Below, piece by piece: positions 3,373 through 18,725 of a DNA stretch of 64,000 nucleotides. Positions within the stretch are counted from its first letter, which is position 1. Each line of letters starts with the position of its first letter. The stretch lies in assembly GCF_041897805.1 (NCBI RefSeq), contig NZ_CP154825.1, positions 4,786,024-4,850,023 on the forward strand, read 5' to 3'. The position numbers and the translations under genes were made by a program. The notes under the pieces were generated by a model. The model did not search any database. It had not been told where the DNA came from and saw nothing but the letters and a program-made list of their open reading frames with translations. This DNA is from Actinokineospora auranticolor. GTDB taxonomy: Bacteria > Actinomycetota > Actinomycetes > Mycobacteriales > Pseudonocardiaceae.

Positions 3373-6300
3373 TTATGGGCCGCTGTGGATGAGGGCTGCC
3401 CAGCGGTCCGGGCGTTGGGGGTCGGAGTCTCGGAGTTCGCGGGTGACGTGGCGCAGGGTGGTTGCCGCGTCGGGGGCGGTTGGGCTGTCGGGGAGTCGGT
3501 CGTAGAAGGCGTGGGCGGCCGTGGCGCCGGTTGTGTCGTGCAAGGGCCAGAGGGTGGCGATGACGTGGCGGAAGCCCGCCAGGTGGAAAGCCGACGCGAG
3601 GTGGAGCACCTCGTCGGCGTGGCGGGTGCCGTGGTTGGCCGTCGAGCAGGCGGACAGGTAGGCGAGTTCGGCGTCCGGAAGGTGCAGTCCGCCGATCTCG
3701 GGTAGGAGCACGTCCCGGTCGTGCAGGACCAGTCCGCCCGCTGCGGGCGAGACCGGGTCGGTGATGGCGTGGCAGGCGAAATGCGCCCAAGTCGCCTTGC
3801 CCATGGCCGCCAAGACCGCGTCCCCGGTGGCGGCGGTGTCCACCAGCGTGGTCCCCCGCAGCGACTTGACTTCCTCGGCCGCGGTGGCCAGGTCTTGCGG
3901 CATGGCGACCGCGAGCACACGGCGTTCCGCGGCCGGTGGTCGGGACCGCGCGGCGCGCAGTACGCGCAGTGACGGGGTGTACGACGAGACGACCAGGTCC
4001 AATGCCCCCTGCTCCCCCGGGTGTCCCGCCGCGTGCAAGGGGAGCAGTCCCAGGACGCCAGTGGGCACCCACCAGACGCGGGTGGATGGCAGTGCGCTGA
4101 TGACCGGCCCGACCACGGCGTCCCACAGCCAGGCGAGTGTGTCGAGCAGGACAGGGCGTCGCCGCATCTGCATGGCCAACGAGTTGCCCTGGACGACGTT
4201 GAGCATCGCCGCGACACGGGCCTCCACGTCCACCAGGTCCGGCAGGTCCACCACCACCGGCTCGGCGTCGGAGCGCACCAATACGGCATGCCCACCACGG
4301 CGGTGCGCGCTGACCAGCACGGCCGTGCCCGCCTCGGGGCGCAGCGACCGCTCAGCTGGCTCGGCGAGGAAGTCGCCGAAGCCGGGCAGGTCGCGGATCT
4401 CGGCGAGCAGCTCGTCGTAGTCCCGCCACCAGCGCTTGCGCTCCGAGGTCGGGAAGTCCGGGGTGTTGAGCCGCTCGCACACCCACTCGAACCGGTCGGC
4501 CAGCTGACTCCGCGCGGACCGGAGCTGGGACAGGTCGACCCGGATGCCCGCCTCGGCCGCGAGCAGCACGCCGCGCCCGAGTTCGGCGACGGTGACCGCC
4601 CCGGCCGGGTCCGCCACCGCGCAGCGCGCCGCGACCGCGGCCTGCACCAAGCCCGACTGGGTGCCCAACCGGTCCGCCCAGTCCGCCTCGCGCGGCGGTA
4701 GCGACGGCAACAACCTGATCGCCGCGTCCAACACCGGCACGGCGAGGTCCGGTTCACCGATCGCCAACAGCAGCTCACCCACCGCGTGCTGGGCGGCGAC
4801 CTGGTCGTGCGGAGACGCCGACGGGGCGAGGAACACCTCGTCGGCGAGGGCGCGCACGGTGTCCGCCGGAACGGGAGCGTCGATGCGGGCCGCCTCGAGC
4901 AGGCAGCGGGCGAGTTCCCCCGCTCGCCGAATCCGCCGGGGGTGTTGCGGATCGGCCCGCACCAGCTCCCACGCGCGCTCGCTCGCCGACACCGCTTCGG
5001 CCAGGTGCGCGGCGTCCGGATCGGCGCGGAACCGGGCCAGGTAGGCGTCGGCGAGCACGGCGCGGCGATCCGGCAGGTCGACGTGATCGGTTCCGGTGGC
5101 GGCCACGGCGCCCTCGGCCAACGCCGTGGCCATGGCCAAGTCCCCTTCGGCATCGCGGATTCGCAGGTGGAGGGCAAGTTGCGCTTGGCGGTCGGGCAGC
5201 GACGCACGGCCCGCGCGGGTCGTGCGCACGGCTTGGTCGCCGAGTTCCACCGCCCGGTCGATCTCGGCCCGGTCCTGGGTGGCGAGGTAGCGGGCGTGGT
5301 GGATGCGGGCGGACACCGCCGCGTCCGTTGTCAGGCGGGCCGCGGCGTCCAAGTCGGCGCCTACTCCGTTGCGGGCGTAGCGGGTCAGGTGGATCTCGGC
5401 CAAGACCGCACCGGAGTCGGGGGCGGTGTTGTTCGCCGGGCGTGACCGGTGCGCCCAGGTCGCGTTCTTGACGGCCTGGTGCAGGTCCGCCTCCGCACCC
5501 CCGCCCAGGTAGCGCTGGTGCAGCGCGGCGGCCAGCGCCAGGTGGAGGCCGTGCAGGCGGGGGTGGTGGTCGGGTAGTTCGGCCAGGGTGTCCTTGGCCA
5601 GGGTGACGGCGCGGTCGAGGCTCGAGCGGTCGCCGCGGTGTCGGTACCGCAGCAACAACAGGGCGACGATGTCGGCTGCGGACTCGACGTCCACGGGTGG
5701 GACGACCAGTGTCCACGCGCGGTCGAGGTCGGGCAGGGTGGCGTCGCGTTCGAACCGGCGGGCCAGGGCGATCGCGAGGTGGGTGGACTCGCAGAAGTCG
5801 ATGGCGCGGTCGAGGTGGTTGTCGATACCGGTGTGGTCGTAGAGCAGTCGGTAGGCGACGCCCAGTGCGCCGCGGGCGGAGGGGACGTCGTGCAGGAGCT
5901 CACGTGCGCGCTCCAGGTCGTCCAGGTGGGTGTGGAGTGCGTACCTGTCCAGGTAGGCGCGGGCGAGGGCTTCGATGATCTCCGCGTCGTCTGTCGTGGC
6001 GATCACCCTGTCGCCCAGTTCGATGCCGTGCTCGAGATCAGCCGGGGCGCGTGAGTCCTGGTAGCGGCGCAGGTAGGCGAGGAACAGCACGCGCCTCAAT
6101 TCCGGGGAGCCTGCCGCGTGCGCAGCGACGAGCAGGATGCCTGCCTCCACCAGTTCCGGCTCGAAGCCGTCGAGCAGGCTCGTGCCGACCTCGACCTGGG
6201 TCCGCCGGTCGGCGAAGCGGCCGACGACCGGGGTCAGGTCCGGGGGGATCCGCTGGTGGTCGTCGGCGACCTGGGACAGGCAGATGATCGCCTTGGCGAG

Positions 6301-6534
6301 GTCGATCGGGCGCCGTCGGAACCGGTAGCGGCGGTGGTGGAACTGGCCGAGGACGGTCTTGGCCGCGGTCAGCTGTGCCGCGAGCACCCGTGACCCGCTG
6401 GCGTCGGTCGCCGCGCGCACGGTTCGCCACAGCTTGGTGGACTCCTCCTCGGCGTCGCGGGAGAACGCGGCCGGAAGCGGGTAGCGGACCCAGTCCGCCA
6501 CCCGGTTGATCTGCTCGTCGATCTGCACTCTCAC
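3373..6534 (-). CDS. TPR-repeat protein with C-terminal CHAT (caspase-like) protease domain
   Basis: About 880 aa of degenerate TPR-like repeats (…LDRAVTLAKDTLAELPDHHPRLHGLHLALAAALHQRY…). The C-terminal CHAT domain carries a His (WAHFACHA) and a Cys (LAYLSACSTANHG) dyad. GTG start at 6534 after a GGCGGAG RBS, overlapping the TGA of the upstream WD40 gene (GTGA). The ORF-track N-terminal extension to 6687 is rejected. Confidence 0.85.
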   Translation of the reverse strand: MRVQIDEQINRVADWVRYPLPAAFSRDAEEESTKLWRTVRAATDASGSRVLAAQLTAAKTVLGQFHHRRYRFRRRPIDLAKAIICLSQVADDHQRIPPDLTPVVGRFADRRTQVEVGTSLLDGFEPELVEAGILLVAAHAAGSPELRRVLFLAYLRRYQDSRAPADLEHGIELGDRVIATTDDAEIIEALARAYLDRYALHTHLDDLERARELLHDVPSARGALGVAYRLLYDHTGIDNHLDRAIDFCESTHLAIALARRFERDATLPDLDRAWTLVVPPVDVESAADIVALLLLRYRHRGDRSSLDRAVTLAKDTLAELPDHHPRLHGLHLALAAALHQRYLGGGAEADLHQAVKNATWAHRSRPANNTAPDSGAVLAEIHLTRYARNGVGADLDAAARLTTDAAVSARIHHARYLATQDRAEIDRAVELGDQAVRTTRAGRASLPDRQAQLALHLRIRDAEGDLAMATALAEGAVAATGTDHVDLPDRRAVLADAYLARFRADPDAAHLAEAVSASERAWELVRADPQHPRRIRRAGELARCLLEAARIDAPVPADTVRALADEVFLAPSASPHDQVAAQHAVGELLLAIGEPDLAVPVLDAAIRLLPSLPPREADWADRLGTQSGLVQAAVAARCAVADPAGAVTVAELGRGVLLAAEAGIRVDLSQLRSARSQLADRFEWVCERLNTPDFPTSERKRWWRDYDELLAEIRDLPGFGDFLAEPAERSLRPEAGTAVLVSAHRRGGHAVLVRSDAEPVVVDLPDLVDVEARVAAMLNVVQGNSLAMQMRRRPVLLDTLAWLWDAVVGPVISALPSTRVWWVPTGVLGLLPLHAAGHPGEQGALDLVVSSYTPSLRVLRAARSRPPAAERRVLAVAMPQDLATAAEEVKSLRGTTLVDTAATGDAVLAAMGKATWAHFACHAITDPVSPAAGGLVLHDRDVLLPEIGGLHLPDAELAYLSACSTANHGTRHADEVLHLASAFHLAGFRHVIATLWPLHDTTGATAAHAFYDRLPDSPTAPDAATTLRHVTRELRDSDPQRPDRWAALIHSGP

Positions 6535-8273
6535 TCCGCCAAACGGAGCAGACGAGCCGGGACGTGGTCCACATCGGTCACGGCGAGCACGACACCACCG
6601 TCCATTGTGGTCGTCATGGCCAGTGCGGTCGGGTACGTCTCGCGGCCCGTCACCGAGGCCAGTTCCTCCCCGGACTCGCTGTCCCACACCGCGGTGCGCT
6701 CGCCGTCGGTCACCGCGACCGCGACCCGCAGATCCTCCAGGACCGCCATGGCGAGTTGGCCGTACCTGCCGGGGACGGAGAACGCGCGGATCTCCTCACC
6801 GGTGGACCCATCCCAGACCCGCACCTCCGAGCCGCCGGCGACCCCCACCCGGAACGACCCGTCCGCCAACCCCACAACCGCCACACTCGGCGACTCGATC
6901 CCGAACCCGCCGCGCTCCAGGGTGAACGTGTGCAGGGTCGTCCGCGTGGTCGCGTCCCACACGTGGACGACCGAGCTGGCACCATCATCCGATCCAGCCA
7001 CCACGCAGACGTGCCCGTTCGCGAGCACGAGAGCGTCGAGCGACCACACGATGTGCACGCTCGGCGTGCCAACCTCCCAGTCCACGATCTTGCTTGCTGT
7101 CTCCGGGTCCCACACCACGACGGTCGCGTCGTCCCCACCGGTGATCAACCACGGCACTTCGCCCGGTGGGCAGGCCCAGGTGACGGCGTTGACCGGGCGG
7201 CGGTGCGCCTCGAAGCTCAACAGCGGTCGGCCGTCGCGCACCGCCCACAGCTTGACGAGCCCGTCCTGCCCGCCGGTCGCCAGCACCGCCTCCTCCTCGG
7301 GCAACGGCAACAACGCGGTGGCGAGCACCCGATCACCGTGACCGACGAACTCCTGGCGGGGCATACCGTCGCGGGGACTCCACACGGTCGCGCCGCCGTC
7401 GTCGCCGGAGGCCATCAGCAGGCTGCCGTCGGGGAGGTCGAGGAGCGTCAGCGCGTGCGGCGCGCTGCCGGACGACCAAGACTCGGGCGTCGCGTCGACG
7501 ACCTCCATCGGACCCGGCCCCCAACTCCGCGGGCGGCTGGTCATGCCTCGCACCCGACCGGGTTTCGCCGAGCGGGGGGTCGTGGGAAAGTCGATCGTCG
7601 CGCGGTAGCCGTACATCTCCAGGTGGTCGACGCGGTCCATGACGGCGCCATTCGGGAGTCGGACGAGGTTGTCCGGCATGTCCGAGGCGGAGTCGATGAC
7701 AATCGCGGGGATGTCGCAGGACCGGTACGGGAACTCCTCGCTGCGGTTGGCGTGGACGGTCTCCTCGTACTGGGTCTCCGCCGTGGACCTGTCCGGGTAG
7801 TCGACCACGTAGTAGTCGGAGCCTTCGTCGACTGCGGTCGCCACGGCGTACCGGTCGTCCCCGGTGAGGGGGTCGCGGTAGGCGACCGCGTCGATGAAGC
7901 CACCGAACAGCTCGTGCGCCAGGGTCTGCCGGAAGGTCTCGCCCGCGGCCATGGCCTGCTCGTAGCGTTTCCACCAACTGTCCGCGTGCGTGCCCCAGTG
8001 CCCGTACAGGCACTCGCCCGCGGTGTCGTAGAGCACCCGCGAACCATCCGCGGGGCGCATCGCGGCGAACGGGGCGTCGTCGCACTCCACCTGGACCCAC
8101 ACGCCGTCATGTCCCGCGCGGAGCGCTTGCACGGCGTCCCACGCACTTTGCTTGTCCGGGTAGCGGCGGTGACCGAAACCCGTGTGGTCGACCCGGTACT
8201 CCCCGGCGCGGACGCTGACCCGGATGTGCGCCTCCTCGTCCAGTGGTTTTCGCTTCCGCAGCACCCACTGCAT
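6531..8273 (-). CDS. WD40 β-propeller protein with ~270-aa uncharacterised N-terminal domain
   Basis: C-terminal repeats (ASGDDGGATVWSPRDG, ATGGQDGLVKLWAVRDG, TGGDDATVVVWDPETAS, AGSDDGASSVVHVWDATT…) are WD40 blades. ATG at 8273 (MQWVLRKRKPL…) avoids a 92-nt overlap with the upstream membrane-protein gene. Confidence 0.8.
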   Translation of the reverse strand: MQWVLRKRKPLDEEAHIRVSVRAGEYRVDHTGFGHRRYPDKQSAWDAVQALRAGHDGVWVQVECDDAPFAAMRPADGSRVLYDTAGECLYGHWGTHADSWWKRYEQAMAAGETFRQTLAHELFGGFIDAVAYRDPLTGDDRYAVATAVDEGSDYYVVDYPDRSTAETQYEETVHANRSEEFPYRSCDIPAIVIDSASDMPDNLVRLPNGAVMDRVDHLEMYGYRATIDFPTTPRSAKPGRVRGMTSRPRSWGPGPMEVVDATPESWSSGSAPHALTLLDLPDGSLLMASGDDGGATVWSPRDGMPRQEFVGHGDRVLATALLPLPEEEAVLATGGQDGLVKLWAVRDGRPLLSFEAHRRPVNAVTWACPPGEVPWLITGGDDATVVVWDPETASKIVDWEVGTPSVHIVWSLDALVLANGHVCVVAGSDDGASSVVHVWDATTRTTLHTFTLERGGFGIESPSVAVVGLADGSFRVGVAGGSEVRVWDGSTGEEIRAFSVPGRYGQLAMAVLEDLRVAVAVTDGERTAVWDSESGEELASVTGRETYPTALAMTTTMDGGVVLAVTDVDHVPARLLRLAE

Positions 8274-8295
8274 GACCGGCTCGTGCTCCACGCGC

Positions 8296-9174
8296 TCACC
8301 GTCCCTTTCGGACCAAAGCGGTGATCTCCCGCCCTTGATCGATGGTGAGGACCCCCGTCTCCTCCTGGTCGCCGACACCGAGGGCACGGGCCAGGGTGCG
8401 CCCGTGCAGATCGACGGCGGCCTCCGACAACACCGTCAGCTCGGCGATGGCGTGGCGCCCCTTGGCCCACCCGGTGGCACCGAACACCAGACCGATCACG
8501 GCGGCGGGCCACCACCACGCGGCGAGCACGAGGTAGGGCAGGCTCCACGTGCCGGTCGCCACCGCCGCGGCGAACGTCGACTCCGCCGCGGTGATCTCCG
8601 CGCGGACCGTGTCGGGTAGCACCAACCACAACCGCGACCAACCGAACGCCAAGTCGACGCCGAACCGGTTCAGCGCCACCTGTTCCACCGCGTGCACCCG
8701 GTCGCCCATCCAGGTCGGACGACCCGGCTCGGCCATCGCGATCCGGTTGGCCCGCTCGGCGAACCGGTCGACCTTCGCCTGCCGGTCGGGGTCGTCCCGG
8801 TCGACCGCCGCCCGTTTCTCGACCAGGGACAGCCACCGCCGCCTGCGCGCCGCCGCACGTAGACGCCGCACGGGACCCGGCCAGCGGCCGAGCCAGACCG
8901 CCCTGGTCAGCCCGGCGAGACCTTGTACAGCGAAGCCGATCCCGGCCGAGGCGAGGAGCAACGCCAGCACGGCGGTAACCTGGCCGCCGACCTGGAGGCG
9001 CAGCGCCGTCACGGCGTCCAGCCCCTGTCGCGCCCTGGTCCAGTCGAGCGCGAGCCGCTGGCCCTGCCACAGCGCGAGCGCGGCGAGCAAGATGAACAGC
9101 GCGCCGGGCAGGACCAGCAACGCCATCCAGCGCTCGGCCAGCTTCTTGGCCAGCTCCTCGAAGAACTTGCCCAC
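8296..9174 (-). CDS. Polytopic membrane protein, unknown function
   Basis: Several hydrophobic helices (ALLVLPGALFILLAALALW, VTAVLALLLASAGIGFAV, WSLPYLVLAAWWWPAAVIGLVFGATGW). Inside the 9174–9210 overlap, GC3 strongly favours the upstream small-ORF frame. A GTG start at 9174 (VGKFFEELAKK…) sharing one base with the upstream TAG is therefore preferred over ATG 9210. Confidence 0.6.
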   Translation of the reverse strand: MGKFFEELAKKLAERWMALLVLPGALFILLAALALWQGQRLALDWTRARQGLDAVTALRLQVGGQVTAVLALLLASAGIGFAVQGLAGLTRAVWLGRWPGPVRRLRAAARRRRWLSLVEKRAAVDRDDPDRQAKVDRFAERANRIAMAEPGRPTWMGDRVHAVEQVALNRFGVDLAFGWSRLWLVLPDTVRAEITAAESTFAAAVATGTWSLPYLVLAAWWWPAAVIGLVFGATGWAKGRHAIAELTVLSEAAVDLHGRTLARALGVGDQEETGVLTIDQGREITALVRKGR

Positions 9175-9530
9175 TACAGGCGCCTCATGCGCAGGCCGAG
9201 CAACGCGCACCGGGGCGGTTCACCCGCCGGAACCGTTCGCGCACGGTGGTTGCAACTGTCGTCGGGACAGCCGAAGACCTCGTCGTCGGCTCGACCCCCG
9301 CCCGCGCCGGGCAGGCCGGTGGCGGGGCCTCGGCGCGCTTCCACAATGTCCTCGGGGTCGCACTCGAGCAGTTGCGAGACGAGCCTGGCCACCGGGCGGC
9401 GGGAGGCGGCCTCGACCTCTATGCGGTCCAGCAGCGCCTTGCGGTCCGCCGACAGGTTCGCGCATTCCTGGCGCAGCTCGGGCAACCCCGCGCAGAGCAT
9501 GGTCAGCACATCCCGCTCGAACCTGTCCAC
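9174..9530 (-). CDS. Small Cys-rich hypothetical protein (~118 aa)
   Basis: GTG at 9530 preceded by GGGAGGA with a 4-nt spacer. GC3 is near 100% through the region that overlaps ORF 8296..9210. Six Cys, including the C-P-D-D-S-C-N-H cluster. No recognisable family. Confidence 0.45.
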   Translation of the reverse strand: MDRFERDVLTMLCAGLPELRQECANLSADRKALLDRIEVEAASRRPVARLVSQLLECDPEDIVEARRGPATGLPGAGGGRADDEVFGCPDDSCNHRARTVPAGEPPRCALLGLRMRRL

Positions 9531-9555
9531 CGCGTCCTCCCGTCTTCGTGGCGCA

Positions 9556-10116
9556 CTACCCGAGCGCGAGCTGTCCCCGGTCGATGAGACCACGAATGAA
9601 GGGAGGCCAATCGTCGGCCAACTTCTCGGCCAGGGCTTGTCGGACGGCATCTCGTTCACCCTCGGTGAGAACTTCACTCGATCCGTCGCCATAGTGCACC
9701 CGGTGGACAATGGCGGCGTTGCCGATGTGCATCAAAGCCCGTCGGCTGACGGTCATGAACAGGCCCAAGGTGTTGCCGGGAATGTAGTTGAGCGCGGAGA
9801 GCCAATCCACCTCCAGCGCCGCCCACGACGACCCCTGCTCGTCCAGCCACCTGGTGACATCGGTGAAGAACACAACCCGCTGGTCCGGGTGCTCGCGCGC
9901 ATAGCGGCGGCAGCAGCTCGCCACGTCCAGTGCGTGCGGAGGGTGCGTTCCCTCCTTGACGAACCGGGTATCGAACGCGAACGCGCCCTCGACCATCGCC
10001 TCCGTCGACCATTCATCGATATCGAGGGCGTGCACCACCCAGAAGGGCGGCTGCATGATGTTGCGAACGAGGTCCTCGTCGCTCGAGCGTGGAGGGTGTG
10101 ACTGCACGGGTAGCAC
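9556..10116 (-). CDS. Hypothetical protein (186 aa), lower-GC codon usage
   Basis: Protein-like sequence (FFTDVTRWLDEQGSSWAALEVDWLSALNYIPGNTLGLFMTVSRRALMHIGNAAIVHRVHY…). First gene after a 735-bp lower-GC intergenic region. Contains noticeably more A/T-ending codons than its neighbours. Confidence 0.55.
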   Translation of the reverse strand: MLPVQSHPPRSSDEDLVRNIMQPPFWVVHALDIDEWSTEAMVEGAFAFDTRFVKEGTHPPHALDVASCCRRYAREHPDQRVVFFTDVTRWLDEQGSSWAALEVDWLSALNYIPGNTLGLFMTVSRRALMHIGNAAIVHRVHYGDGSSEVLTEGERDAVRQALAEKLADDWPPFIRGLIDRGQLALG

Positions 10117-10850
10117 GTTAGTGGATCTTCCCGTGCTGGAGTCCGCTATCGCCGAAGACGAGGAGGGCTCAATTTTGGCTGGGGCTCGACAGGGTGGTCA
10201 TACCGGCAGTCGGCACAACGACCGTTGTCGCCTGCCATCGCGCAGGGTTGAGCGAGCGCCTGTTGAGATGATCCGGGCGTGGTTCCGGTAGCGTGAGCCG
10301 TCTGGGCACGGGCCTGTCGACTCGGGCGTTCGCGGCCCTGGTGGCAGAGCTCGGCCTGGCTTGAGATGTCCGTGCAGACGCACGGCGGGTGGCTCAGCCG
10401 CGTCTGCGCACAGTGGCTGCCAATTGTGGCCACCACAGGCAGATACCGCGCAACGGCGCTCTGGCCGGATGGGGCTCGGCGTGCCGGGACAAGCCCATCT
10501 GGTCGCCCTCACGGCCAGCACCTCCGCCAGCCACGGAAACCACCGACGCCCAGTCATCGCTCCGACCGATCACACCAGGGCGCGATGTCGTTCCGCAGGC
10601 GCAGGTGCCGACCGCCATTCCGGGAACTCAGGGGAAGGCGGACGCCGTCGGTGCGCGCAGGCGGAGACGCCGATGTCGAGGAAACGAGTTCGAACGCCTC
10701 GCTCATGACGCGGCCGAGCACGAATACGAAAACACTTTGCATTCTCCGGGGTGTCACGCTAGCGATTCTTCGCCAACCGCCGGACAACCGGTGACCGCTT
10801 GGCTACTATCTGTTCGTTGGTGCCGTCAGATGCGCTGAGAGTCTCAGAGC

Positions 10851-11672
10851 GTGTTTGAGAACGTTGGTGATCTTCAGGCGTTGGATGACGCGGTGGTGGC
10901 GTTGAGTGCGTTGAGGGAAGTGGCGCCCATAGGGCTTCCCGAGCGGGTCGAGGCGGTGGAGAACCTCGGTGTGTTGCTGCGGCTGCGGTTTGAGCGGCTT
11001 GGCGACCTCGACGACATCACCAGGTCCGTCGAAGCGCACCGGGAAGTGCTGGCGATCCTGTCACCCGACGATCCGACTTATCCTCGGCAGCAGGCTCAGC
11101 TTGCCAGTGCGCTGATGCCTCGGGGTGTCGCCACCACCGATCGGGGCGACTGCGAGGAAGCGCTGGGGTTGTGGCAGGACGCTCTTGCGGCGCTGCCGCC
11201 CGGTCATCCTGACGCGGGCCGCCACCGCCAGCTTGTGGGTGTGGGGCTTTCGGTACGGGCGGAGGTGTTCGGGTCGCTCCCCCATCGCAATGCGGCGGTT
11301 GCGTTTTGGCGGGCGGCGCTGGGCACTACCGAACCTGGGTCGCCTCAGCGGTTCATCGCTCGCGAGATGTTGGGGGCGAACCTGTTGGGTCGGTTCGCCG
11401 AGTTCACTGCCGATGCCGACCTGGCTGAAGCTCTCGCGGTGGCGCGGGACGCGCTCGCGGACGCGGGCCCCGAGCACCGCCTTCAGGCGACTCGCTCGCT
11501 CTGCAGTGCCCTTGACGCGCGGTTTCGGCGGTTCGGGGTTCGTGAAGACCTTGACGAACTCATCGAGCAGGGTGAGGTCGTACTGCACCTCATGCCCGCC
11601 GAGCACCCGGACCGGCCCGCTCACGAGCAGGGCATGGTCCACGCCCGCGCGCTACGCGACGATCGGGCCTAG
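10851..11672 (+). CDS. Stand-alone TPR-repeat protein (resembles the N-terminal repeat region of CHAT proteins)
   Basis: 273 aa of repeats of the type LGVLLRLRFERLGDLDDITRSVEAHREVL / LGANLLGRFAEFTADADLAEALAVARDAL. GTG start. The stop shares the palindromic CTAG with the convergent NTPase gene. Confidence 0.6.
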   Translation: MFENVGDLQALDDAVVALSALREVAPIGLPERVEAVENLGVLLRLRFERLGDLDDITRSVEAHREVLAILSPDDPTYPRQQAQLASALMPRGVATTDRGDCEEALGLWQDALAALPPGHPDAGRHRQLVGVGLSVRAEVFGSLPHRNAAVAFWRAALGTTEPGSPQRFIAREMLGANLLGRFAEFTADADLAEALAVARDALADAGPEHRLQATRSLCSALDARFRRFGVREDLDELIEQGEVVLHLMPAEHPDRPAHEQGMVHARALRDDRA

Positions 11673-14600
11673 CCCACTCTGCCGATCACGGACTCGACTG
11701 ATATCCGGGCCCACACCGCGCTCAATGTCGCGACGATCAGGGCGGCGGCGAAGGTTATCCAGAGCCCTGGGTCGGTCACGATGCGGTCGAACCAGGTGAT
11801 GGCGGCGATGCCGAGTAGCAGCACCGCCGATTTGGTGTCCGTGCAGACCGCGAATACCGAGAACGGCACGGTCGCGTAGTCGCTGCGTAGCGCGAACATC
11901 AAGGCCGACAGCACGGCGACCGCCACGACCAAGGCGGTGGCGATGGTGACCGGCACGGCGCCCCGCACAGCTGTGAAGACCCCGACGGCGGTGTACAGCG
12001 CGGCGGGCACCAGCAGCCGCAGGCCGAGCCACCTCGACGCGGTGTGTGAGCGGCGCAGCACCTCCCGGGTCCGCGCCAGTTCCGGATCGGGCCGTGGTGG
12101 TGCGGGGATGATCGGGAGGAGTTCGATCAGCTCCAGCGCGTCGGCGATGTCGTCCGGGGAGGCCGATAGGGAACGCAGCAGCGCCAACGATTCTTCGGCC
12201 TCACGTAGAGCCGCGTCGCGGTCGCCGCCCGCGCGCGCGGTGGCCAATGCCGACAACCGCAGCGTCCTGGCCAGGGGCAAGGTGAACGCGGCGGGTTCGG
12301 CGGCGGCCAGTGCTCGGTGTCGGACGACCGCGTCCTTGAGGATGGTGGCCGCCTCGGTGTGCTCGCCCTGTCGGTACAGCACCGCGCCCAGCCGGGCCGA
12401 TCCGTGTGCCACGTCGAACTCGAAGCCCTCCTCCACCGCGGCCAAGTCCCGGTAGCGCGCCAGCGACTCGCGCAGCACGGTCACCGCCTCGGGGACGCGG
12501 TCGAGTTCCGCCAGCAGCTCGCCGTGGTTGGCCAGCGCCCTCGCCAGGTGCGGCCGGAACACCTCGGGGACCGCGGCGGCCAGCGGTCGCAGCGCGGCGA
12601 TCGCGTCCACCCCCGTCGCGAGCGCCTCGGTCGACCGACCCGACGCGGCCAGCGCGAGGCTCAGGTTGACCAGTGCCGTGGCCAGGCTCCCGGCGGAGTC
12701 CGCGGTGTCCGCCTCGACGAGCGACCGGCACAGCCGTACCGACTCGGTGAGCGCCGCCACCGCCTCGGCCGGGCGGCCCGCGTCCACCAGCGCCAGGCCG
12801 TGGGCGGTGAGGGCCTTGTCCAACCGCCGCGTGCCCGCGAGTTCGCCCGCGTCGAGCAGGGCGCGGCTCAGCTCGACGGCCTCCGCCGCGGCGGTGACGG
12901 CGTCGGTGGGTCTGCCGTTCTCGGTCAGCCTGGCGCCCAAGTCGCTTAGCGCGGCGGCGAGACCGGCCGTCTCGCGCTCGGGGTCGCGCGCGGCCAGTCG
13001 TCTGCGCAGCGCCACCACTTCCGCGGCGACCGCGAGTGCCTCGGCCGGGCGACCGGCGGTCGCCAGGTCGGTGGCGTGGTTTCCCAACGCGATCGCGAGC
13101 CGGGGTTCGAACCGGTCCGGGTAGGTCGCGGCCGGGCCGCGCAGGCCCGCCACGGCCTCCCCCGCCGTCCGCACCGCGTCGGCGCGCCTGCCCGCGCGCG
13201 CCTGCGCGACCGCCAGGGCGGCGCGCGCCTCGGCCAGGCTCACCGCGTGCGCGGTCGGGTTGCGTTCGGCCTCCACGCGGAAGATGGCCACGGCCTCCTC
13301 CGCCGCGTCCACGGCCTCTTGGGGCCGCTGCGCGGTGGCGAGCCGGTCCGCGAGGTGGGTCAGCGTGACGGCCAGGTGGACGCGTTGGGTGCTGTTGTCC
13401 TCGGTGGCGACGCCGCGGAACAGGGCGACGGCCTCGACGGTCGACTCCAGCGCCGCCGGGTGCCGGTCCGCGTCCGCCAACGCCGTCCCGAGGTCGCCCA
13501 GGGCGATGGCCAGGTCGGGCGTGTGGACGAGCCGGTTCGCCTCGACCAGTTCACGCAGCAGCGCGACCCGCTCCTCGAACACCGCGACCGCCGCCGCCCA
13601 CTCCCCCTTGTCCCTCAGGCGAGTGCCGTGAACGCGCAGCAGCGCCACGGACTCGTCGGGGGACTCGTCGGGGTCTCGCGGCAGCGCGATCGCCTCGTCG
13701 GAGACGGCTTCCGCCTCCCGCACCCGGCCCACGGCCGTGTAGTGGCTCGCCAGGTTCCCCAACGACCGGGACAGTGCGACGGCGAACCGTTCCGGGTCGA
13801 CGGCGAAGAGCGCGCGGTGCGCCGCCACCGCTTCCTCCCCGAGCCGCACGGCTTCGTCGCGGCGGCCCAGGCTCGCCATGGCGATGCCCAGGTTGTCCAC
13901 GCCCGCCGCCAAGGTGCCCGCGTGGGCGTCGGGATCGGCGGCGTGCAGTTCGCGGCGCAGCGCCACGCACTCGGTGAACGCCGCCAGCGCCTCGTCGAAC
14001 CGGTCCGCGGCGAGCAATCGGGACCCGAGCGCGCCGTACAACACCGCTTTGGTCGCGAGATCGGTCTCCTCGACCAGCCTACGTCCGATGTGGACATTGG
14101 CCACCGCGGCGACCCCGGCCGCCAGGTCCGGGTCGACCGCGGCGGGGAACCGTTCGATGATGCCGGTCAGCGTGGTCTGGTCGATCCCCGGAATGGTCGC
14201 GACCACGCCCAACGCGCCACTGCCCGCCGCCACGGCCAGGTGCGGATCACGGCGCAGCAGGGGAAGCAACAACGTCTCGGCGACGTGCGGCCAGCGGTGC
14301 GCCGCGGCGGCCAGGAACGTGACCGCGCGGGGTGTCCAGTCGGCGGGCTCACGGCTCGTCGGCACCCGCGCGAGGACCGCCCGCGCCGTCTCGGCCGCCC
14401 AGGGCGCGGCCGGGTGGTCCGCGTCGTGGCCCGGCAGGGTGAGCGCGAGGAAGTCCTCGGCCAGGCGGTCCGGGTAGAGCGGTTCCAGGGCCGCGCCGTC
14501 CTCCGGCGGGTAGCACGCGGCGTGGTCGCCGACGGCGTCGTCCGGCAGGTCCAGGCGGTCGGCGACGACGCGCTCGGCGGCGGCGAGGGGTTGGGCGCCG

Positions 14601-15562
14601 GTCAGCGTCGCGGTGAACACGACCCGGTGCATGGCCTCGGGGGTCGTGCGGTAGCCGTCGCGGCGTTCGTGCATGAGGTGCCAGTGCAGGTGTTCGCGGT
14701 CGAGCAGGTACGCGGTCGTGCCCGCCAGGTCGGCGGGCGGGGTGCGACTGGCCGCGTGCGCGTCCACGGCGACCAAGGCCGTCATGTGCACGGCGAGCGT
14801 GAGACCGAACTCGGGGTTGCCGTCGAGGTCGGGTGGCTGCCGCACGTCCGCCGGGTCAATCAGGTCGTAGTAGGGGGCGAAGGCGTCGCGGGCGGCGGTG
14901 AACATGGTCGTGCGGTCGGCCGGTGGCAGGGTCGTGAGCGCCGAAGAGGACGTCCGGGAGCGCAACGCGACCAACGCGCCGCGCACGGCGGGCCAGGCGG
15001 TGTCGGTTCGGGCGATCAGCAGCAGCCGGGTCCGCGTGCCGGGTTGGGCGAACAGCGCGTTGCTCAGCAGCCACCGCAGGTGGGTTTGCGGCCACTGGTC
15101 GGCGTAGTCGACGACCAGCAGCACCCCGGCCTTCCCGTCGACACGCAGGTCCTGGCTGCCCGGCGCGACGGCGACGGCCCCCGGGCCGTGGGTGGCGGTG
15201 ACGACCAGCCAGCCCGCCGCGTCGGACTCGGCCGCGAGCCGGTCGGCGAGACGGGTCTTACCCGCGCCGCCGGGGCCGTGCAACCAGTGCGCGGCGAGGT
15301 CGCCGTCCGCGTCGCGCCAGGCCCGGAGCCGGTCGAGTTCGTCGGCGCGGCTGGTGAACCCGACCACCGCGCTGCGGGCGTGCAGCAGTCGGCTGGGGAC
15401 CTCCCGCAGCCACGCGTCGGGTGGGGGCGTCGGCGGTGACCAGCGCCGGAGCAGGTACAGCGGCGCGCCGTCGCCCAGGACGTGGATGTCCGCGCCGATC
15501 ACGCCGTAGGCGAAGCCGCCGGTGGCGGTCACGTGCTGGACGGCGCCGTCCGCGGCCGTCAC
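11669..15562 (-). CDS. STAND-type P-loop NTPase with TPR array and C-terminal 4-TM domain
   Basis: Starts at a GTG overlapping the TGA of the upstream small gene (VTAADGAVQHVTATGGFAYGVIGADIHV…). Walker A is WLHGPGGAGKTRLADRL. Walker B-like motif is GVLLVVDYADQW, followed by TRLLLIARTDTAWP. About 13 TPR units follow (…AIALGNHATDLATAGRPAEALAVAAEVVALRRRL…). Four hydrophobic helices sit at the C-terminus (WLGLRLLVPAALYTAVGVFTAV…LSAVWARISV). The ORF-track extension to 17269 is read-through into the opposite-strand ROK gene and is rejected. Confidence 0.8.
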   Translation of the reverse strand: MTAADGAVQHVTATGGFAYGVIGADIHVLGDGAPLYLLRRWSPPTPPPDAWLREVPSRLLHARSAVVGFTSRADELDRLRAWRDADGDLAAHWLHGPGGAGKTRLADRLAAESDAAGWLVVTATHGPGAVAVAPGSQDLRVDGKAGVLLVVDYADQWPQTHLRWLLSNALFAQPGTRTRLLLIARTDTAWPAVRGALVALRSRTSSSALTTLPPADRTTMFTAARDAFAPYYDLIDPADVRQPPDLDGNPEFGLTLAVHMTALVAVDAHAASRTPPADLAGTTAYLLDREHLHWHLMHERRDGYRTTPEAMHRVVFTATLTGAQPLAAAERVVADRLDLPDDAVGDHAACYPPEDGAALEPLYPDRLAEDFLALTLPGHDADHPAAPWAAETARAVLARVPTSREPADWTPRAVTFLAAAAHRWPHVAETLLLPLLRRDPHLAVAAGSGALGVVATIPGIDQTTLTGIIERFPAAVDPDLAAGVAAVANVHIGRRLVEETDLATKAVLYGALGSRLLAADRFDEALAAFTECVALRRELHAADPDAHAGTLAAGVDNLGIAMASLGRRDEAVRLGEEAVAAHRALFAVDPERFAVALSRSLGNLASHYTAVGRVREAEAVSDEAIALPRDPDESPDESVALLRVHGTRLRDKGEWAAAVAVFEERVALLRELVEANRLVHTPDLAIALGDLGTALADADRHPAALESTVEAVALFRGVATEDNSTQRVHLAVTLTHLADRLATAQRPQEAVDAAEEAVAIFRVEAERNPTAHAVSLAEARAALAVAQARAGRRADAVRTAGEAVAGLRGPAATYPDRFEPRLAIALGNHATDLATAGRPAEALAVAAEVVALRRRLAARDPERETAGLAAALSDLGARLTENGRPTDAVTAAAEAVELSRALLDAGELAGTRRLDKALTAHGLALVDAGRPAEAVAALTESVRLCRSLVEADTADSAGSLATALVNLSLALAASGRSTEALATGVDAIAALRPLAAAVPEVFRPHLARALANHGELLAELDRVPEAVTVLRESLARYRDLAAVEEGFEFDVAHGSARLGAVLYRQGEHTEAATILKDAVVRHRALAAAEPAAFTLPLARTLRLSALATARAGGDRDAALREAEESLALLRSLSASPDDIADALELIELLPIIPAPPRPDPELARTREVLRRSHTASRWLGLRLLVPAALYTAVGVFTAVRGAVPVTIATALVVAVAVLSALMFALRSDYATVPFSVFAVCTDTKSAVLLLGIAAITWFDRIVTDPGLWITFAAALIVATLSAVWARISVESVIGRVG

Positions 15563-15894
15563 CGGTGCTCCCGACCTGGGCCCGCCGGGTGGTTGACGAT
15601 GTCGCCGCCGATCACGCCCTGCGCGATCCCGCCCCCGGACGCCGTGATGGTCTGGGTCGGCGCGGGCGCCCGCCGGGACTGCGCCAGGGTCACGACCAGC
15701 GACACCAGCCCCAGCACGAGCGACGCGCCGCCGATGAACATGCTCACCACGCTCGCCTGCGAGTCCCGCTCGTCCAGTGGCAGCCGGAAGTACCCGACCA
15801 GCGCGCGGACCAGCCACACCCCGGCCACGACCACCACCGCTGTGGCGACCGCCGCGCCGATCACCCAGACCCGTCTCCGGTTCGCCACCCGCAC
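15559..15894 (-). CDS. Small 2-TM membrane protein whose C-terminal tail repeats the NTPase N-terminal motif
   Basis: 111 aa with a GTG start. Two hydrophobic helices, then …ITASGGGIAQGVIGGDIVNHPAGPG at the C-terminus. Its stop overlaps the NTPase start (GTGA). Confidence 0.6.
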   Translation of the reverse strand: MRVANRRRVWVIGAAVATAVVVVAGVWLVRALVGYFRLPLDERDSQASVVSMFIGGASLVLGLVSLVVTLAQSRRAPAPTQTITASGGGIAQGVIGGDIVNHPAGPGREHR

Positions 15895-16106
15895 CTCCGG
15901 CCGTCGTTGTCTCGATCATGCACGGTTCGCGCGCGCCGGTGGGCGGTATGCGCGGAACGCACCCGCGCGTTCGAGTGGTCGGGATTCCCGGGCCGGTCGG
16001 GAAACACCCCCCGAACGGCCCAAGCGCCTGGTGCGCGGTCCGGCGCAAGTGGTTCCGCGCTGTGGACGCGGGTTCCGCGCGCGGCGGATCGTGCGAGCAT
16101 CGGGGG

Positions 16107-17282
16107 ATGTCCGCGATCTCGGTACCCGGCGAAGACCGGTTCGCGTCCAGTACGGCGATGATGCTGCGCGCGGTGTTGCGCCACGGTCCGCTGTCGCGGC
16201 GGGCACTGGGGCGGTTGGTCGGCATGAGCGGGTCGACGATGACCCGGCACAGCGCGGTCCTCTTGGACACCGGGCTGATCCGGGAGACCGAGGGCAGGCC
16301 CGACGGGCGGGTGGGCAGGCCGCACGTGCCGCTCGCGGTGAACCCCCGGGCCTGCGAGGTGATCGGGGTGCACCTCGCGCACGAGTTCGGCACCGTGGCG
16401 GTGGCCGACCTGTGTGGACGGATCATCCGCCAGCGGCGCGTGGAGTACCGCGGCGATTCCCCCGGCGCGGCCGTCGACTCGGTGGCCGCGGTCGCCGCGC
16501 GGTGGGTCGAACCCGGGCGGACCAGGGCGGTCGGTGTCGCCACCGGCGGCTGGGTCGACGCCGACCAGGGCGTGCTGGTCTCGCACCCGTCCCTCGGGTG
16601 GCGGTCGGTGCCGGTGCGCGACATCGTGGCCAACCGGGTCCGGCTGCCGGTGCACGTGGACAACCACACGCGCGGTCTGGTGCAGGCCGAGGGGCTGTTC
16701 GGTGACGTCGACCCCGAGCAGTCGGTGCTGTTCCTGTTCGTGGGCAACGTGGTCGACGCCGCCGTGCGCACGGGACGGGAGGTGCACCGGGGGCCGCGCT
16801 CGGGCGCGGGGGTGGTCGCCCACCTGCCGGTCGGCGACCCGGCGATCCCCTGCCCCGACGGGCACACCGGCTGCTTCGAGGCCACGGTGGCGGACCAGGC
16901 GTGGGCGCGGCGGGTGTCGGGCGCGTCGTTCTGGGACCTGCTGGGCAAAGCCCAGGGCGGGGACGCGCGGGCGCGGGAATTGTTCGTCGCGCGCGGCGGG
17001 ATCGTCGGCCGGGCCGCCGCGCTGTTGTACGACATCGTCAACCCCGATGTGCTGATCGTCGCGGAATTGGGCGCCTCGGCCATCCCGGAATGCCTTGACG
17101 CGATCCGCGCCGAGGTCGGTCGGCGGTCGCTGCTGTGCTCCTCCCCCACCACCTCGATCCGGGCGAGCGCGTTCCCACCTGCCGAGATCCTGGCCGTGTC
17201 GGCGGCCGGGGTCGCTCTGGCCGAGGTGTACGCGGATCCGATAGGGGCGGTGCGGACTTCCCACTTCATGGGCCGGAGTTAA
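16107..17282 (+). CDS. ROK-family transcriptional regulator
   Basis: N-terminal HTH (LSRRALGRLVGMSGSTMTRHSAVLLDTGLIRE) followed by a ROK sugar-kinase-like fold (VGVATGGWVD, LPVHVDNHTRGL, CPDGHTGCFEA zinc motif). Start at MSAISVPGE…. The track's N-terminal extension is rejected. Confidence 0.8.
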   Translation: MSAISVPGEDRFASSTAMMLRAVLRHGPLSRRALGRLVGMSGSTMTRHSAVLLDTGLIRETEGRPDGRVGRPHVPLAVNPRACEVIGVHLAHEFGTVAVADLCGRIIRQRRVEYRGDSPGAAVDSVAAVAARWVEPGRTRAVGVATGGWVDADQGVLVSHPSLGWRSVPVRDIVANRVRLPVHVDNHTRGLVQAEGLFGDVDPEQSVLFLFVGNVVDAAVRTGREVHRGPRSGAGVVAHLPVGDPAIPCPDGHTGCFEATVADQAWARRVSGASFWDLLGKAQGGDARARELFVARGGIVGRAAALLYDIVNPDVLIVAELGASAIPECLDAIRAEVGRRSLLCSSPTTSIRASAFPPAEILAVSAAGVALAEVYADPIGAVRTSHFMGRS

Positions 17283-17393
17283 TTTCGCCGGTCGCATAGT
17301 TGACCGGTCGCGACGGGCTGAAACAGGATGGGACCACTTCGCAGCACCGCGTCGAATGCGGTGTGCCTCCCCATTCGCACGCTTGGAGCGCGC

Positions 17394-18725
17394 ATGTCCG
17401 TACGCCGTTTGCACCTCAACGCCTTCCTCATGGGGGTGGGTCACCACGAGGCCGCCTGGCGGCACCCGGTCACCGACCCGGCCCGCCTGGGCGACGTCCG
17501 CCACTACCAGGAGCTGGCCCGGATCGCCGAGGCAGGCGGGTTCGACTCGGTGTTCCTCGCCGACGGCGTGCAGGTCTGGGGCGACGTCGAGCACACGGCG
17601 GCGCACGTGTTCGAGCCGCTCACGCTGCTGACCGCGATGGCGGCGGTGACCTCGCGGGTCGGGTTGATCGCCACGGTGTCCACCGGCTACAGCGAGCCGT
17701 ACAACCTGGCCCGCTGGTTCGCCTCGCTCGACCACATCAGCGGTGGTCGCGCGGGGTGGAACATCGTCACGACCGCGGGCGACCGGTCCGCGCAGAACTT
17801 CTCCCTGCCCGGCGCGCCCGACCACGCCGAGCGCTACGAGCGCGCGGACGAGTACCTGCGGGTGGTCACGGCACTGTGGGACAGCTGGGCCGACGACGCG
17901 GTCCTGGCCGACCGGGAGACCGGGCGCTTCGTCGATCCGGCCAAGGTCCGGGAGATCGGCCACGAGGGCCGCTTCCACCGGGTGCGCGGCCCGCTCAACT
18001 CGACCCGGTCGCCGCAGGGCCACCCGCTGCTGGTGCAGGCCGGGTCGTCGGAGGACGGGAAGGCGTTCGCCGCGCGGTGGGCCGAGGCGGTGTTCACCGC
18101 GCACCAGACCGTCGAGTCGGCGCGGAAGTTCTACGCCGACCTGAAGGGCAGGCTGGCCGGGCACGGTCGCGGCGCGGATTCGGTGAAGGTGCTGCCGGGG
18201 GTGGTGCCGGTGCTCGGGTCTACGGAGGAGGAAGCGAACCGCCTGGCCCGTGAACTCGACGAGTTGATCGTGCCCGCGCGGGCGGTGGCGCAGGTGTCGG
18301 AGATGCTGGGGTTCGACCTGTCCGGGCACCCGCTCGACCGGCCGCTGCCGCCGCTGCCGGTGACCGGGGTGAACGGCGCGCAGAGCCGGTTCGCGCTGGT
18401 CCGGGACCTGGTCGAGCGGGAGAACCCGACGCTGCGCGAGCTGCTGTCGCGGCTGGGCGGCGGACGCGGCCACACCGTCGTCGTGGGCACGCCGGAGCGG
18501 ATCGCCGACCACATCGAGCTGTGGTTCACCACCGGGGCGGCCGACGGGTTCAACGTCATGGCCCCGCTGCTGCCCTCCGGTCTGACCGAGTTCGTCGACA
18601 CCGTCCTGCCGATCCTGCGGCGGCGCGGCCTGTTCCGCGACGACTACACCGGCACGACCCTGCGCGAGCACTACGGACTCGCCCGCCCCGCCGACGGCTT
18701 CGCCGACCTCGCCTCCGCCGTCTGA
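17394..18725 (+). CDS. LLM-class flavin-dependent monooxygenase (NtaA/SnaA/DszA family)
   Basis: MSVRRLHLNAFLMGVGHHEAAWRHP…, the typical N-terminus of FMN-dependent NtaA/DszA monooxygenases. 443 aa. Confidence 0.85.
   Translation: MSVRRLHLNAFLMGVGHHEAAWRHPVTDPARLGDVRHYQELARIAEAGGFDSVFLADGVQVWGDVEHTAAHVFEPLTLLTAMAAVTSRVGLIATVSTGYSEPYNLARWFASLDHISGGRAGWNIVTTAGDRSAQNFSLPGAPDHAERYERADEYLRVVTALWDSWADDAVLADRETGRFVDPAKVREIGHEGRFHRVRGPLNSTRSPQGHPLLVQAGSSEDGKAFAARWAEAVFTAHQTVESARKFYADLKGRLAGHGRGADSVKVLPGVVPVLGSTEEEANRLARELDELIVPARAVAQVSEMLGFDLSGHPLDRPLPPLPVTGVNGAQSRFALVRDLVERENPTLRELLSRLGGGRGHTVVVGTPERIADHIELWFTTGAADGFNVMAPLLPSGLTEFVDTVLPILRRRGLFRDDYTGTTLREHYGLARPADGFADLASAV

What the first reader, a model, noticed from the sequence alone, without database searches (positions are those of the whole stretch)
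11669..12100. STAND NTPase ends in four transmembrane helices
After the TPR array, the last ~140 aa form four strongly hydrophobic helices (WLGLRLLVPAALYTAVGVFTAV…, ATALVVAVAVLSALMFAL, AVLLLGIAAITWF, WITFAAALIVATLSAVWA). C-terminal membrane anchoring of a TPR-NTPase is uncommon. It places the putative sensor at the membrane together with the 2-TM partner protein.
Basis: seen in the sequence. Interest (0 to 1): 0.6.

Follow-up and report, generated by a model that had tools for sequence, protein, structure and literature searches.

The report
Membrane-tailed NLR with amyloid-motif partner
An Actinokineospora NLR-type (STAND NTPase plus TPR) protein really does end in a hydrophobic, probably membrane-spanning tail, and it sits next to a small two-helix membrane protein that shares a short amyloid-type signalling motif with it; the tail has no relative anywhere, so its function is unproven.

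Summary
The gene (window 11669-15562, minus strand, 1297 aa; Actinokineospora auranticolor WP_104481470.1) stays in a coding-like frame to its stop. Its last ~120 aa carry the four quoted hydrophobic segments. Only two of them (aa 1205-1225 and 1267-1286) score as clear transmembrane helices; the other two are marginal.

The 109-aa upstream gene overlaps the NLR start by 4 bp (GTGA). It has two TM helices, and its C-terminal motif (TITASGGGIAQGVIGGDIVN) matches the NLR N-terminus (VTATGGFAYGVIGADIHV). This is the known bacterial amyloid-signalling effector/NLR layout (Dyrka et al. 2020), here with a 2-TM effector in place of a Bell domain.

The tail is an orphan: an exhaustive search of 1.84 billion proteins found only itself. 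Of 83 family homologues, 81 lack any tail. Two carry a different multi-TM tail; those two tails are homologous to each other.

I read this as a new variant of a known kind: a membrane-tethered amyloid-signalling NLR. Co-localisation with the partner is plausible but not supported statistically (Fisher p = 0.20).

The parts
15559..15888 (-). Small partner gene, 109 aa (WP_146108236.1). Proposed 2-TM effector with a C-terminal amyloid-type motif. Its stop TGA overlaps the NLR start GTG (GTGA).
   Evidence: (same gene call in NCBI). GC3 is 0.95.
15808..15864 (-). Partner TM helix 1 (aa 9-27, VIGAAVATAVVVVAGVWLV).
   Evidence: KD19 2.55; dG19 -0.78.
15685..15750 (-). Partner TM helix 2 (aa ~47-68).
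   Evidence: KD19 2.29; dG19 -0.48. Conserved in the L084, L028 and L081 partners.
15586..15660 (-). Partner C-terminal motif (aa 77-101, PTQTITASGGGIAQGVIGGDIVNHP).
   Evidence: Local alignment to the NLR N-terminus scores 56. This was reached in 1 of 5000 shuffles of the partner side and 0 of 5000 of the NLR side.
11669..15562 (-). NLR-type gene, 1297 aa (WP_104481470.1), GTG start. Order of parts: N-terminal motif, STAND NTPase, TPR array, hydrophobic tail.
15473..15553 (-). NLR N-terminal amyloid-type motif (aa 4-30, ADGAVQHVTATGGFAYGVIGADIHVLG).
   Evidence: conserved as QxVxAxxGFAYGVIGADIHVFGDG across about 80 loci. Low pLDDT with short strands in the model.
14123..15385 (-). STAND NTPase module (aa ~60-480). 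Walker A is GPGGAGKT at aa 96-103; Walker B is LLVVDYAD at about aa 147-154.
12143..14065 (-). TPR array (aa ~500-1140).
   Evidence: Pfam TPR_12 1.3e-24 and TPR_10 3.9e-23. NCBIfam FxSxx_TPR, partial. BLAST to homologues' TPRs ends at about aa 1135-1160. AF2 pLDDT above 90 for aa ~1055-1150.
12032..12142 (-). Pro/Arg-rich linker (aa 1141-1177; PIIPAPPRPDPELARTREVLRRSHTASR), 6 K/R.
11966..12031 (-). Hydrophobic segment H1 (aa 1178-1199). Marginal TM; contains R1182.
   Evidence: KD19 1.73; dG19 +3.95.
11888..11950 (-). Hydrophobic segment H2 (aa 1205-1225). Clear TM helix.
   Evidence: KD19 2.66; dG19 -2.44.
11789..11830 (-). Hydrophobic segment H3 (aa 1245-1258). Short and marginal.
   Evidence: KD19 1.65; dG19 +4.9.
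11705..11764 (-). Hydrophobic segment H4 (aa 1267-1286). Clear TM helix.
   Evidence: KD19 2.02; dG19 -0.65.

Best explanation
The two overlapping genes form a bacterial amyloid-signalling effector/NLR pair of the kind described by Dyrka et al. 2020.

The large protein is a STAND (NLR-like) NTPase with a TPR sensor. Its first ~30 residues carry a Gly/Val/Ile-rich motif. The small upstream protein is an integral membrane protein with two TM helices (N-in, C-in). It carries the matching motif on its cytoplasmic C-terminus.

Inferred mechanism:
- Ligand binding by the TPRs lets the NTPase oligomerise.
- The clustered N-terminal motifs adopt a cross-beta fold.
- That fold templates the partner's motif.
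- The assembled 2-TM effector damages the membrane, giving regulated cell or compartment death, probably anti-phage.

This particular NLR also has a genuine, in-frame, species-specific C-terminal extension with two firm and two marginal TM helices. Either topology leaves the NTPase, the TPRs and the extreme C-terminus in the cytoplasm. The most likely role of the tail is to tether the receptor to the membrane where its effector already resides.

Shown here: gene structure, STAND fold, TPRs, motif pairing, hydrophobic tail, rarity of the tail.
Inferred: amyloid templating, pore formation, and the tethering function.
For: - Frame and gene call.
- STAND fold. Walker motifs invariant. TPRs.
- The 4-bp GTGA overlap and significant motif similarity.
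- The same motif pairing recurs in about 60 homologous loci with a helical 'AAMATDAW' partner, and in five further loci (L004, L028, L050, L081, L084) with a 2-TM partner related to the window's.
[quoted passage not shown] Experimental amyloid-triggered Abi by Bab/Agp (10.1101/2024.11.07.622273).
- Tail: two segments with negative insertion energy. The hydrophobic stretch was reached in 0 of 2000 shuffles. The 4-TM N-in/C-in model puts about 9-10 K/R inside and 2 outside.
- Two other family members (L041, L069) have C-terminal multi-TM tails that are conserved between each other (33% identity, tblastn 1e-12). C-terminal membrane modules therefore recur in this family and can be maintained.
Against: - The window's tail has no homologue at all: 1.84 billion representatives, the word-indexed search and metagenome contigs. 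No conservation supports function.
- 81 of 83 homologues lack a tail.
- There is no significant association between a 2-TM partner and a TM tail (p = 0.20).
- H1 and H3 are marginal, and AF2 confidence in the tail is low.
- A/T-ending codons are somewhat more frequent in the tail (12% against 7%). The DNA just downstream looks degraded: lower GC and a truncated TPR-like ORF. Both fit a recent rearrangement.
- The motif could not be assigned to a named BASS class, and amyloid formation is untested.
- The NTPase misses the Pfam NB-ARC and NACHT thresholds.
Confidence: 0.55

Rival explanations
1. The tail is a recent, lineage-specific accident. Stop-codon loss, an indel or a rearrangement extended the TPR gene into new sequence. 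It is tolerated but has no selected function, or it even inactivates the receptor.
For: - The sequence is an orphan, and the protein is a singleton at 90% identity.
- Family homology stops at aa ~1135-1160, about where many homologues end.
- A Pro-rich linker precedes the tail.
- The downstream 1.6 kb has lower GC and holds a convergent truncated TPR-like ORF that overlaps the stop codon.
- A/T-ending codons are enriched in the tail.
Against: - GC3 of 0.88 with GC1 above GC2 is a normal coding signature, not what out-of-frame or non-coding DNA gives in a 72% GC genome. Other frames there read as Arg/Pro/Gly-rich.
- The segment spacing, short hairpin loops and charge distribution look like a real helical-hairpin membrane domain.
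- Two other family members have independently conserved TM tails.
Confidence: 0.28
2. The tail is an active module rather than a passive anchor. Either it senses membrane or envelope perturbation (for example phage entry or lysis proteins) and gates the NTPase, or it is itself a pore-forming effector brought together when the NLR oligomerises.
For: - L041 has a TM tail and the N-terminal motif but no recognisable adjacent effector.
- L069 pairs a TM tail with a soluble helical partner, so tails are not tied to membrane partners.
- TM effector modules are known in STAND defence proteins (Avs effector legend in PMC13581612).
Against: - No similarity to any known TM effector family. The best Pfam match is DUF4231 at E = 5.6, i.e. 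noise.
- In known STAND proteins the effector is N-terminal and the C-terminus is the sensor.
- No periplasmic domain is present: the outside loops are 5-8 residues in the 4-TM model.
Confidence: 0.1
3. The tail is an annotation or sequencing artefact. A frameshift error joins the NLR to an unrelated reading frame, and the true C-terminus lies elsewhere.
For: Only that 81 of 83 homologues lack a tail.
Against: - Identical protein in two separate assemblies.
- Continuous coding-type codon-position GC through the junction.
- No alternative frame with a coding signal. The overlapping ORF 11652-12032 (-) is Arg/Gly-rich off-frame sequence.
Confidence: 0.03

Closest known systems
Bell-domain / NLR gene pairs with bacterial amyloid signalling sequences (BASS1-10; Dyrka et al. 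2020, bioRxiv 10.1101/2020.01.06.895854)
   Same: - Collinear adjacent genes with a 4-bp overlap.
- A small effector with a ~25-aa G/V/I/Q-rich motif at its C-terminus, and the same motif at the N-terminus of an NTPase+TPR protein.
- Filamentous actinobacterial host.
- Most homologous loci carry a ~140-aa helical partner of the expected size and layout.
   Different: - The effector here is an integral 2-TM protein, not the soluble helical Bell domain.
- The NLR carries a C-terminal TM tail, which that work does not describe ('transmembrane' occurs 0 times in the text).
- The BASS class was not assignable with the tools at hand.
Bab/Agp amyloid-controlled abortive infection system of E. coli (Ibarlosa et al. 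2024, bioRxiv 10.1101/2024.11.07.622273)
   Same: - A sensor with an N-terminal amyloid motif next to a small membrane-targeting effector with the C-terminal motif.
- It provides an experimentally shown mechanism for this layout.
   Different: [quoted passage not shown]
- Bab is a soluble Bell-related domain that relocates to the membrane.
- The sensor has no TM segments.
Fungal HET-S / NWD2 (HeLo pore-former activated by an NLR-borne amyloid motif)
   Same: The logic is the same: NLR oligomerisation templates an amyloid fold that activates a membrane-damaging effector. This rests on established knowledge and is summarised.
   Different: - Eukaryotic.
- The effector exposes a TM helix only after activation.
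- The NLR is soluble with WD40 repeats.
Ectocarpus ROCO (LRR-Roc-COR) candidate receptors with C-terminal TM anchors (Zambounis et al. 2012, PMC3341825)
   Same: A repeat-containing NTPase receptor family in which a minority of members acquired one or two C-terminal TM segments, apparently twice independently.
   Different: Different NTPase class (Roc GTPase), a eukaryotic alga, and no amyloid partner.

Membership tests
STAND (NLR-like) P-loop NTPase | Walker A (GxxxxGK[TS]) and Walker B (hhhhD[DE]) motifs | tested here: met
   GPGGAGKT at aa 96-103 and LLVVDYAD at about aa 147-154. G99, G101, K102 and D152 are invariant in 32 family members.
STAND (NLR-like) P-loop NTPase | NBD + helical domain + winged-helix module, structurally closest to NLR/Apaf-1/MalT-type proteins rather than to classical AAA+ | tested here: met
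STAND (NLR-like) P-loop NTPase | Significant match to a curated NB-ARC, NACHT or nSTAND sequence profile | tested here: not met
   Only sub-threshold P-loop matches: AAA_16 20.7 bits (cut-off 32.6), NPHP3_N 16.7, NACHT 12.6. Some homologues carry precomputed PF25199 (nSTAND_NTPase5) or PF13191 hits.
STAND (NLR-like) P-loop NTPase | C-terminal superstructure-forming repeat sensor | tested here: met
   TPR_12 1.3e-24 and TPR_10 3.9e-23.
BASS-type amyloid-signalling effector/NLR pair | Adjacent collinear genes, short distance or overlap | tested here: met
   The stop TGA of the 109-aa gene overlaps the NLR start GTG. Same gene calls in NCBI.
BASS-type amyloid-signalling effector/NLR pair | Shared ~20-25-aa motif at the effector C-terminus and the NLR N-terminus | tested here: met
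   SW score 56, reached in 1 of 5000 and 0 of 5000 shuffles. The pairing recurs across homologous loci.
BASS-type amyloid-signalling effector/NLR pair | Effector is a Bell domain | tested here: not met
   The window effector is a 2-TM protein with no Pfam, NCBIfam or PADLOC match. For the helical partners of other loci, Bell identity could not be verified: no PDB or NCBIfam match.
BASS-type amyloid-signalling effector/NLR pair | Motif matches one of the published BASS1-11 profiles | not testable with these tools
   The profiles and logos are figures or supplements that are not held.
BASS-type amyloid-signalling effector/NLR pair | Motif forms amyloid, and the NLR side seeds the effector side | not testable with these tools
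   Needs ThT/EM/ssNMR or in vivo prion assays.
C-terminal multi-pass membrane anchor | Segments of about 19-21 aa with favourable predicted membrane insertion | tested here: met
   H2 dG19 -2.44 and H4 -0.65. Two such segments occurred in 16 of 2000 shuffles.
C-terminal multi-pass membrane anchor | Four TM helices, as claimed | tested here: inconclusive
   H1 is +3.95 and H3 is +4.9, comparable to the TPR helix at 957-975. AF2 draws four helices at low pLDDT. The charge distribution favours the 4-TM model.
C-terminal multi-pass membrane anchor | Conserved in orthologues or homologues | tested here: not met
   No homologue of the tail. 81 of 83 family loci have no tail. L041 and L069 carry a different tail.
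Known TM effector families (e.g. SLATT/DUF4231) | Profile match | tested here: not met
   Best Pfam hits have E = 0.65 and 5.6.

The most novel reading that the evidence does not exclude
C-terminal membrane modules have been recruited at least twice within one actinobacterial family of amyloid-signalling NLRs. One is the orphan tail described here; the other is the conserved L041/L069 tail. On this reading they turn a cytosolic pattern-recognition receptor into a membrane-resident one. Such a receptor would either survey the cytoplasmic face of the membrane (phage entry or lysis events), or nucleate amyloid activation of an integral 2-TM 'holin-like' executioner directly in the plane of the membrane. 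A membrane-embedded amyloid signalosome of this kind has not been described in bacteria.
Probability: 0.3. Interest if true: 0.65.

Novelty: new variant of a known kind. Interest (0 to 1): 0.45.

Why it matters
Bacterial NLR/STAND receptors and their amyloid-motif partners are treated as soluble cytoplasmic machines. The executioner is thought to move to the membrane only after activation. Here both the executioner (2 TM) and, unusually, the receptor (2-4 TM at the C-terminus, after the sensor repeats) appear to be membrane-resident.

If the tail is functional, it gives a simple natural test case. One could ask whether membrane tethering changes NLR activation thresholds or what the receptor senses. 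It would also show that amyloid signalling can operate between two integral membrane proteins.

If the tail is only a recent accident, it illustrates how quickly the C-termini of these fast-diversifying receptors change.

Tried and rejected
- Tail-only homology searches found nothing but self: word-indexed, exhaustive HMMER over 1.84 billion representatives, metagenome contigs, and tblastn against the window and all fetched loci.
- Pfam on the tail gave only noise.
- I looked for a conserved downstream membrane gene that could have fused to the NLR. No consistent one exists in 82 loci.
- I looked for an internal start or RBS that would make the tail a separate gene. None is convincing.
- Internal duplication of H1-H2 against H3-H4 is not significant (755 of 3000 shuffles).
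- Window tail against the L041 and L069 tails scores above shuffles (30 and 8 of 1000). Shuffling destroys hydrophobic runs, so I do not count this as homology; tblastn finds nothing.
- A first NJ tree grouped the three tail-bearing NLRs, but bootstrapping on trimmed columns gave 10% support or less. Common ancestry of the tails therefore stays unresolved.
- The metagenome search with the L041/L069 tail profile found nothing. Partner-family alignments were too variable for a locus scan.
- The partner protein search found only self.
- PADLOC has no model for either protein.
- The PDB profile search with the whole family was swamped by TPR proteins.
- The helical partner profile hit nothing meaningful in PDB or NCBIfam.
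- No terminator-like or promoter-like sites near the gene end, and no meaningful repeats.
- The first homologue list contained only proteins of 873 aa or less. Genome-derived ORFs of the family are about 880-2000 aa, so the window protein's total length is not unusual.
Full report
**What is at the coordinates.** The window is 72% GC. The long minus-strand ORF 11669-17269 is coding only in its 3' two-thirds. Codon-position GC shows the real frame starts near 15560. The gene is 11669-15562 (-), with a GTG start, and encodes 1297 aa. The same product is annotated in NCBI as WP_104481470.1, 'tetratricopeptide repeat protein', from Actinokineospora auranticolor. It appears in a draft assembly and in an assembly with an 8.49-Mb contig. 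The finding's interval 11669-12100 corresponds to aa 1154-1297. GC3 stays at 0.87-0.93 to the stop codon and GC1 exceeds GC2. The alternative frames over this stretch are typical Arg/Gly/Pro-rich off-frame sequence. A frameshift artefact is therefore very unlikely.

**How hydrophobic the tail is.** Kyte-Doolittle 19-residue windows give H1 (1178-1199) 1.73, H2 (1205-1225) 2.66, H3 (about 1245-1258) 1.65 and H4 (1267-1286) 2.02. I also used a position-independent Hessa-type insertion scale, with values recalled from memory. On it only H2 (-2.4) and H4 (-0.65) are favourable. H1 (+3.9, with an internal Arg) and H3 (+4.9, short) are no better than a TPR helix of the same protein. The protein is Ala/Leu/Val-rich, so single high KD windows arise often in shuffles. 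A 109-aa stretch this hydrophobic never arose in 2000 shuffles, and two dG-favourable segments arose in 0.8%. A 4-TM N-in/C-in model places 9-10 Lys/Arg inside and 2 outside. A 2-TM model (H2 and H4) is also topologically consistent with a cytoplasmic NTPase-TPR. Single-sequence AlphaFold2 draws four helices at the expected places but with pLDDT of 40-60. Conclusion: the tail is real, with two firm TM helices and two possible ones.

Immediately upstream on the same strand is a 109-aa gene (15559-15888). Its stop overlaps the NLR start (GTGA). It has two clear TM helices. Its C-terminal tail, PTQTITASGGGIAQGVIGGDIVNHP, aligns with the NLR N-terminus, ADGAVQHVTATGGFAYGVIGADIHVLG. The score of 56 was reached in 1 of 5000 shuffles of one side and 0 of 5000 of the other. 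This is the layout Dyrka et al. defined for bacterial amyloid signalling sequences: a motif at the C-terminus of a small effector and at the N-terminus of an adjacent, often overlapping, NB-ARC/NACHT-TPR/WD gene. The mechanism has since been shown experimentally for the E. coli Bab/Agp abortive-infection pair.

**The family.** A genome scan returned 80 family loci from Streptomyces, Kitasatospora, Micromonospora and others, at 48-57% identity. The NLR-side motif is highly conserved, with consensus QxVxAxxGFAYGVIGADIHVFGDG. Most loci have an upstream helical protein of about 130-180 aa with an 'AAMATDAW' N-terminal signature and a matching C-terminal motif. Five loci (L004, L028, L050, L081, L084) instead have a 2-TM partner, three of them 37-41% identical to the window's. 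One database homologue (P0069) has the helical domain fused to the NTPase. The window's pair is therefore a member of a known kind of system with an unusual integral-membrane effector.

**Is the tail conserved?** No.
- The tail alone finds nothing in the word-indexed database.
- It finds only itself in an exhaustive HMMER scan of 1.84 billion representatives.
- It finds nothing in metagenome contigs.
- Both proteins are singletons at 90% identity, and the closest NTPase module is 56-59% identical, so no orthologue exists to compare.
- TPR homology to relatives ends at aa 1135-1160.
- Among the 83 other loci, 81 have no C-terminal hydrophobic segment.
- Two do: L041 (Catellatospora paridis) and L069 (an Actinomycetota MAG). 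Each carries a tail of about 185 aa with several hydrophobic segments, in frame and with coding-type GC. The two tails are homologous to each other (33% identity, tblastn 1e-12). They are not detectably related to the window's tail.
- Bootstrapped NJ does not group the three tail-bearing NLRs (10% support or less). Whether there was one origin or several is open.
- No conserved downstream membrane gene exists that could have been fused, and there is no plausible internal start.

**Interpretation.** The best-supported reading is a membrane-tethered variant of an amyloid-signalling NLR, with its effector already in the membrane. It is not supported by co-occurrence. Five 2-TM-partner loci lack tails, L069 combines a tail with a helical partner, and L041 has no adjacent partner. 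The Fisher test gives p = 0.20.

The main rival is a recent neutral extension. In its favour:
- The sequence is an orphan.
- A/T-ending codons are slightly more frequent in the tail (12% against 7%).
- The adjacent 1.6 kb looks degraded, with lower GC and a convergent 273-aa TPR-like ORF. That ORF overlaps the stop codon and weakly resembles the repeat region of the nearby CHAT protein.

An analogous recruitment of C-terminal TM anchors, apparently twice independently, has been described for Ectocarpus ROCO receptors. I found no description of C-terminal TM tails on bacterial NLRs in the papers searched. That is absence of evidence in a limited library.

**Verdict.** The system is a new variant of a known kind. 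Interest is moderate: the architecture is unusual and experimentally tractable, but the tail's function rests on one species' orphan sequence.

Noticed in passing
window 3373-10116 (-): Downstream on the same strand lies a second putative conflict cluster. It has a CHAT-domain protein (3373-6687; Pfam CHAT 5.4e-44), a WD40 protein (6531-8387), a 304-aa protein with hydrophobic stretches and no family match (8296-9210), and two small ORFs without matches (9174-9710, 9556-10116). About 1.5 kb of lower-GC DNA separates it from the NLR pair.
   Followed up: partly
window 10851-11672 (+): A convergent 273-aa ORF is annotated as a gene in NCBI. Its stop overlaps the NLR stop by 4 bp. It is TPR-like (TPR_10 9e-6), has low GC3 (0.76), and weakly resembles the repeat region of the nearby CHAT protein (E 3e-4). 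It is probably a truncated remnant. The surrounding 10000-11600 region has GC of 0.55-0.72.
   Followed up: partly
L041:9028-9582 and L069:9352-9906: Two NLR homologues (Catellatospora paridis and an Actinomycetota MAG) end in a ~185-aa multi-TM module. The two modules are homologous to each other, with conserved DGxWAWVLT..HL and FLxD...ALAxRPxxW motifs. The module has no Pfam match and no relatives in metagenome contigs.
   Followed up: partly
L005-L084, about 500 nt upstream of each NLR: The usual partner in this family is a ~130-180-aa helical protein. It has a conserved N-terminal 'LAxxGxTTxVxAMATDAW' signature and a C-terminal motif (QQxWVQxxTAxxxGxAFGAQGGxxxVH) that mirrors the NLR N-terminus. 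It is probably a Bell-type domain, but that could not be verified. P0069 has this domain fused directly to the NTPase.
   Followed up: partly
P0054 (Streptomyces sp. SR27, partial record): In this record the first ~300 aa of a family NTPase are followed by a MurJ-like multi-TM region (PF03023). This may be a chimeric or misassembled record, or another membrane fusion.
   Followed up: no
window 15777-18725 (+) and L001 1-9456: Divergently transcribed from the NLR pair are a ROK/MarR-type regulator, an NtaA/DmoA-family FMN monooxygenase, an ABC transporter and FAD/ferredoxin genes. This looks like an ordinary metabolic cluster. The NLR pair sits at its edge, island-like.
   Followed up: no
All 120 listed hits of the word-indexed protein search were 873 aa or shorter. 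ORFs of the same family recovered from genomes are about 880-2000 aa. The protein list is therefore biased toward short or partial entries and should not be used to judge C-termini.
   Followed up: yes
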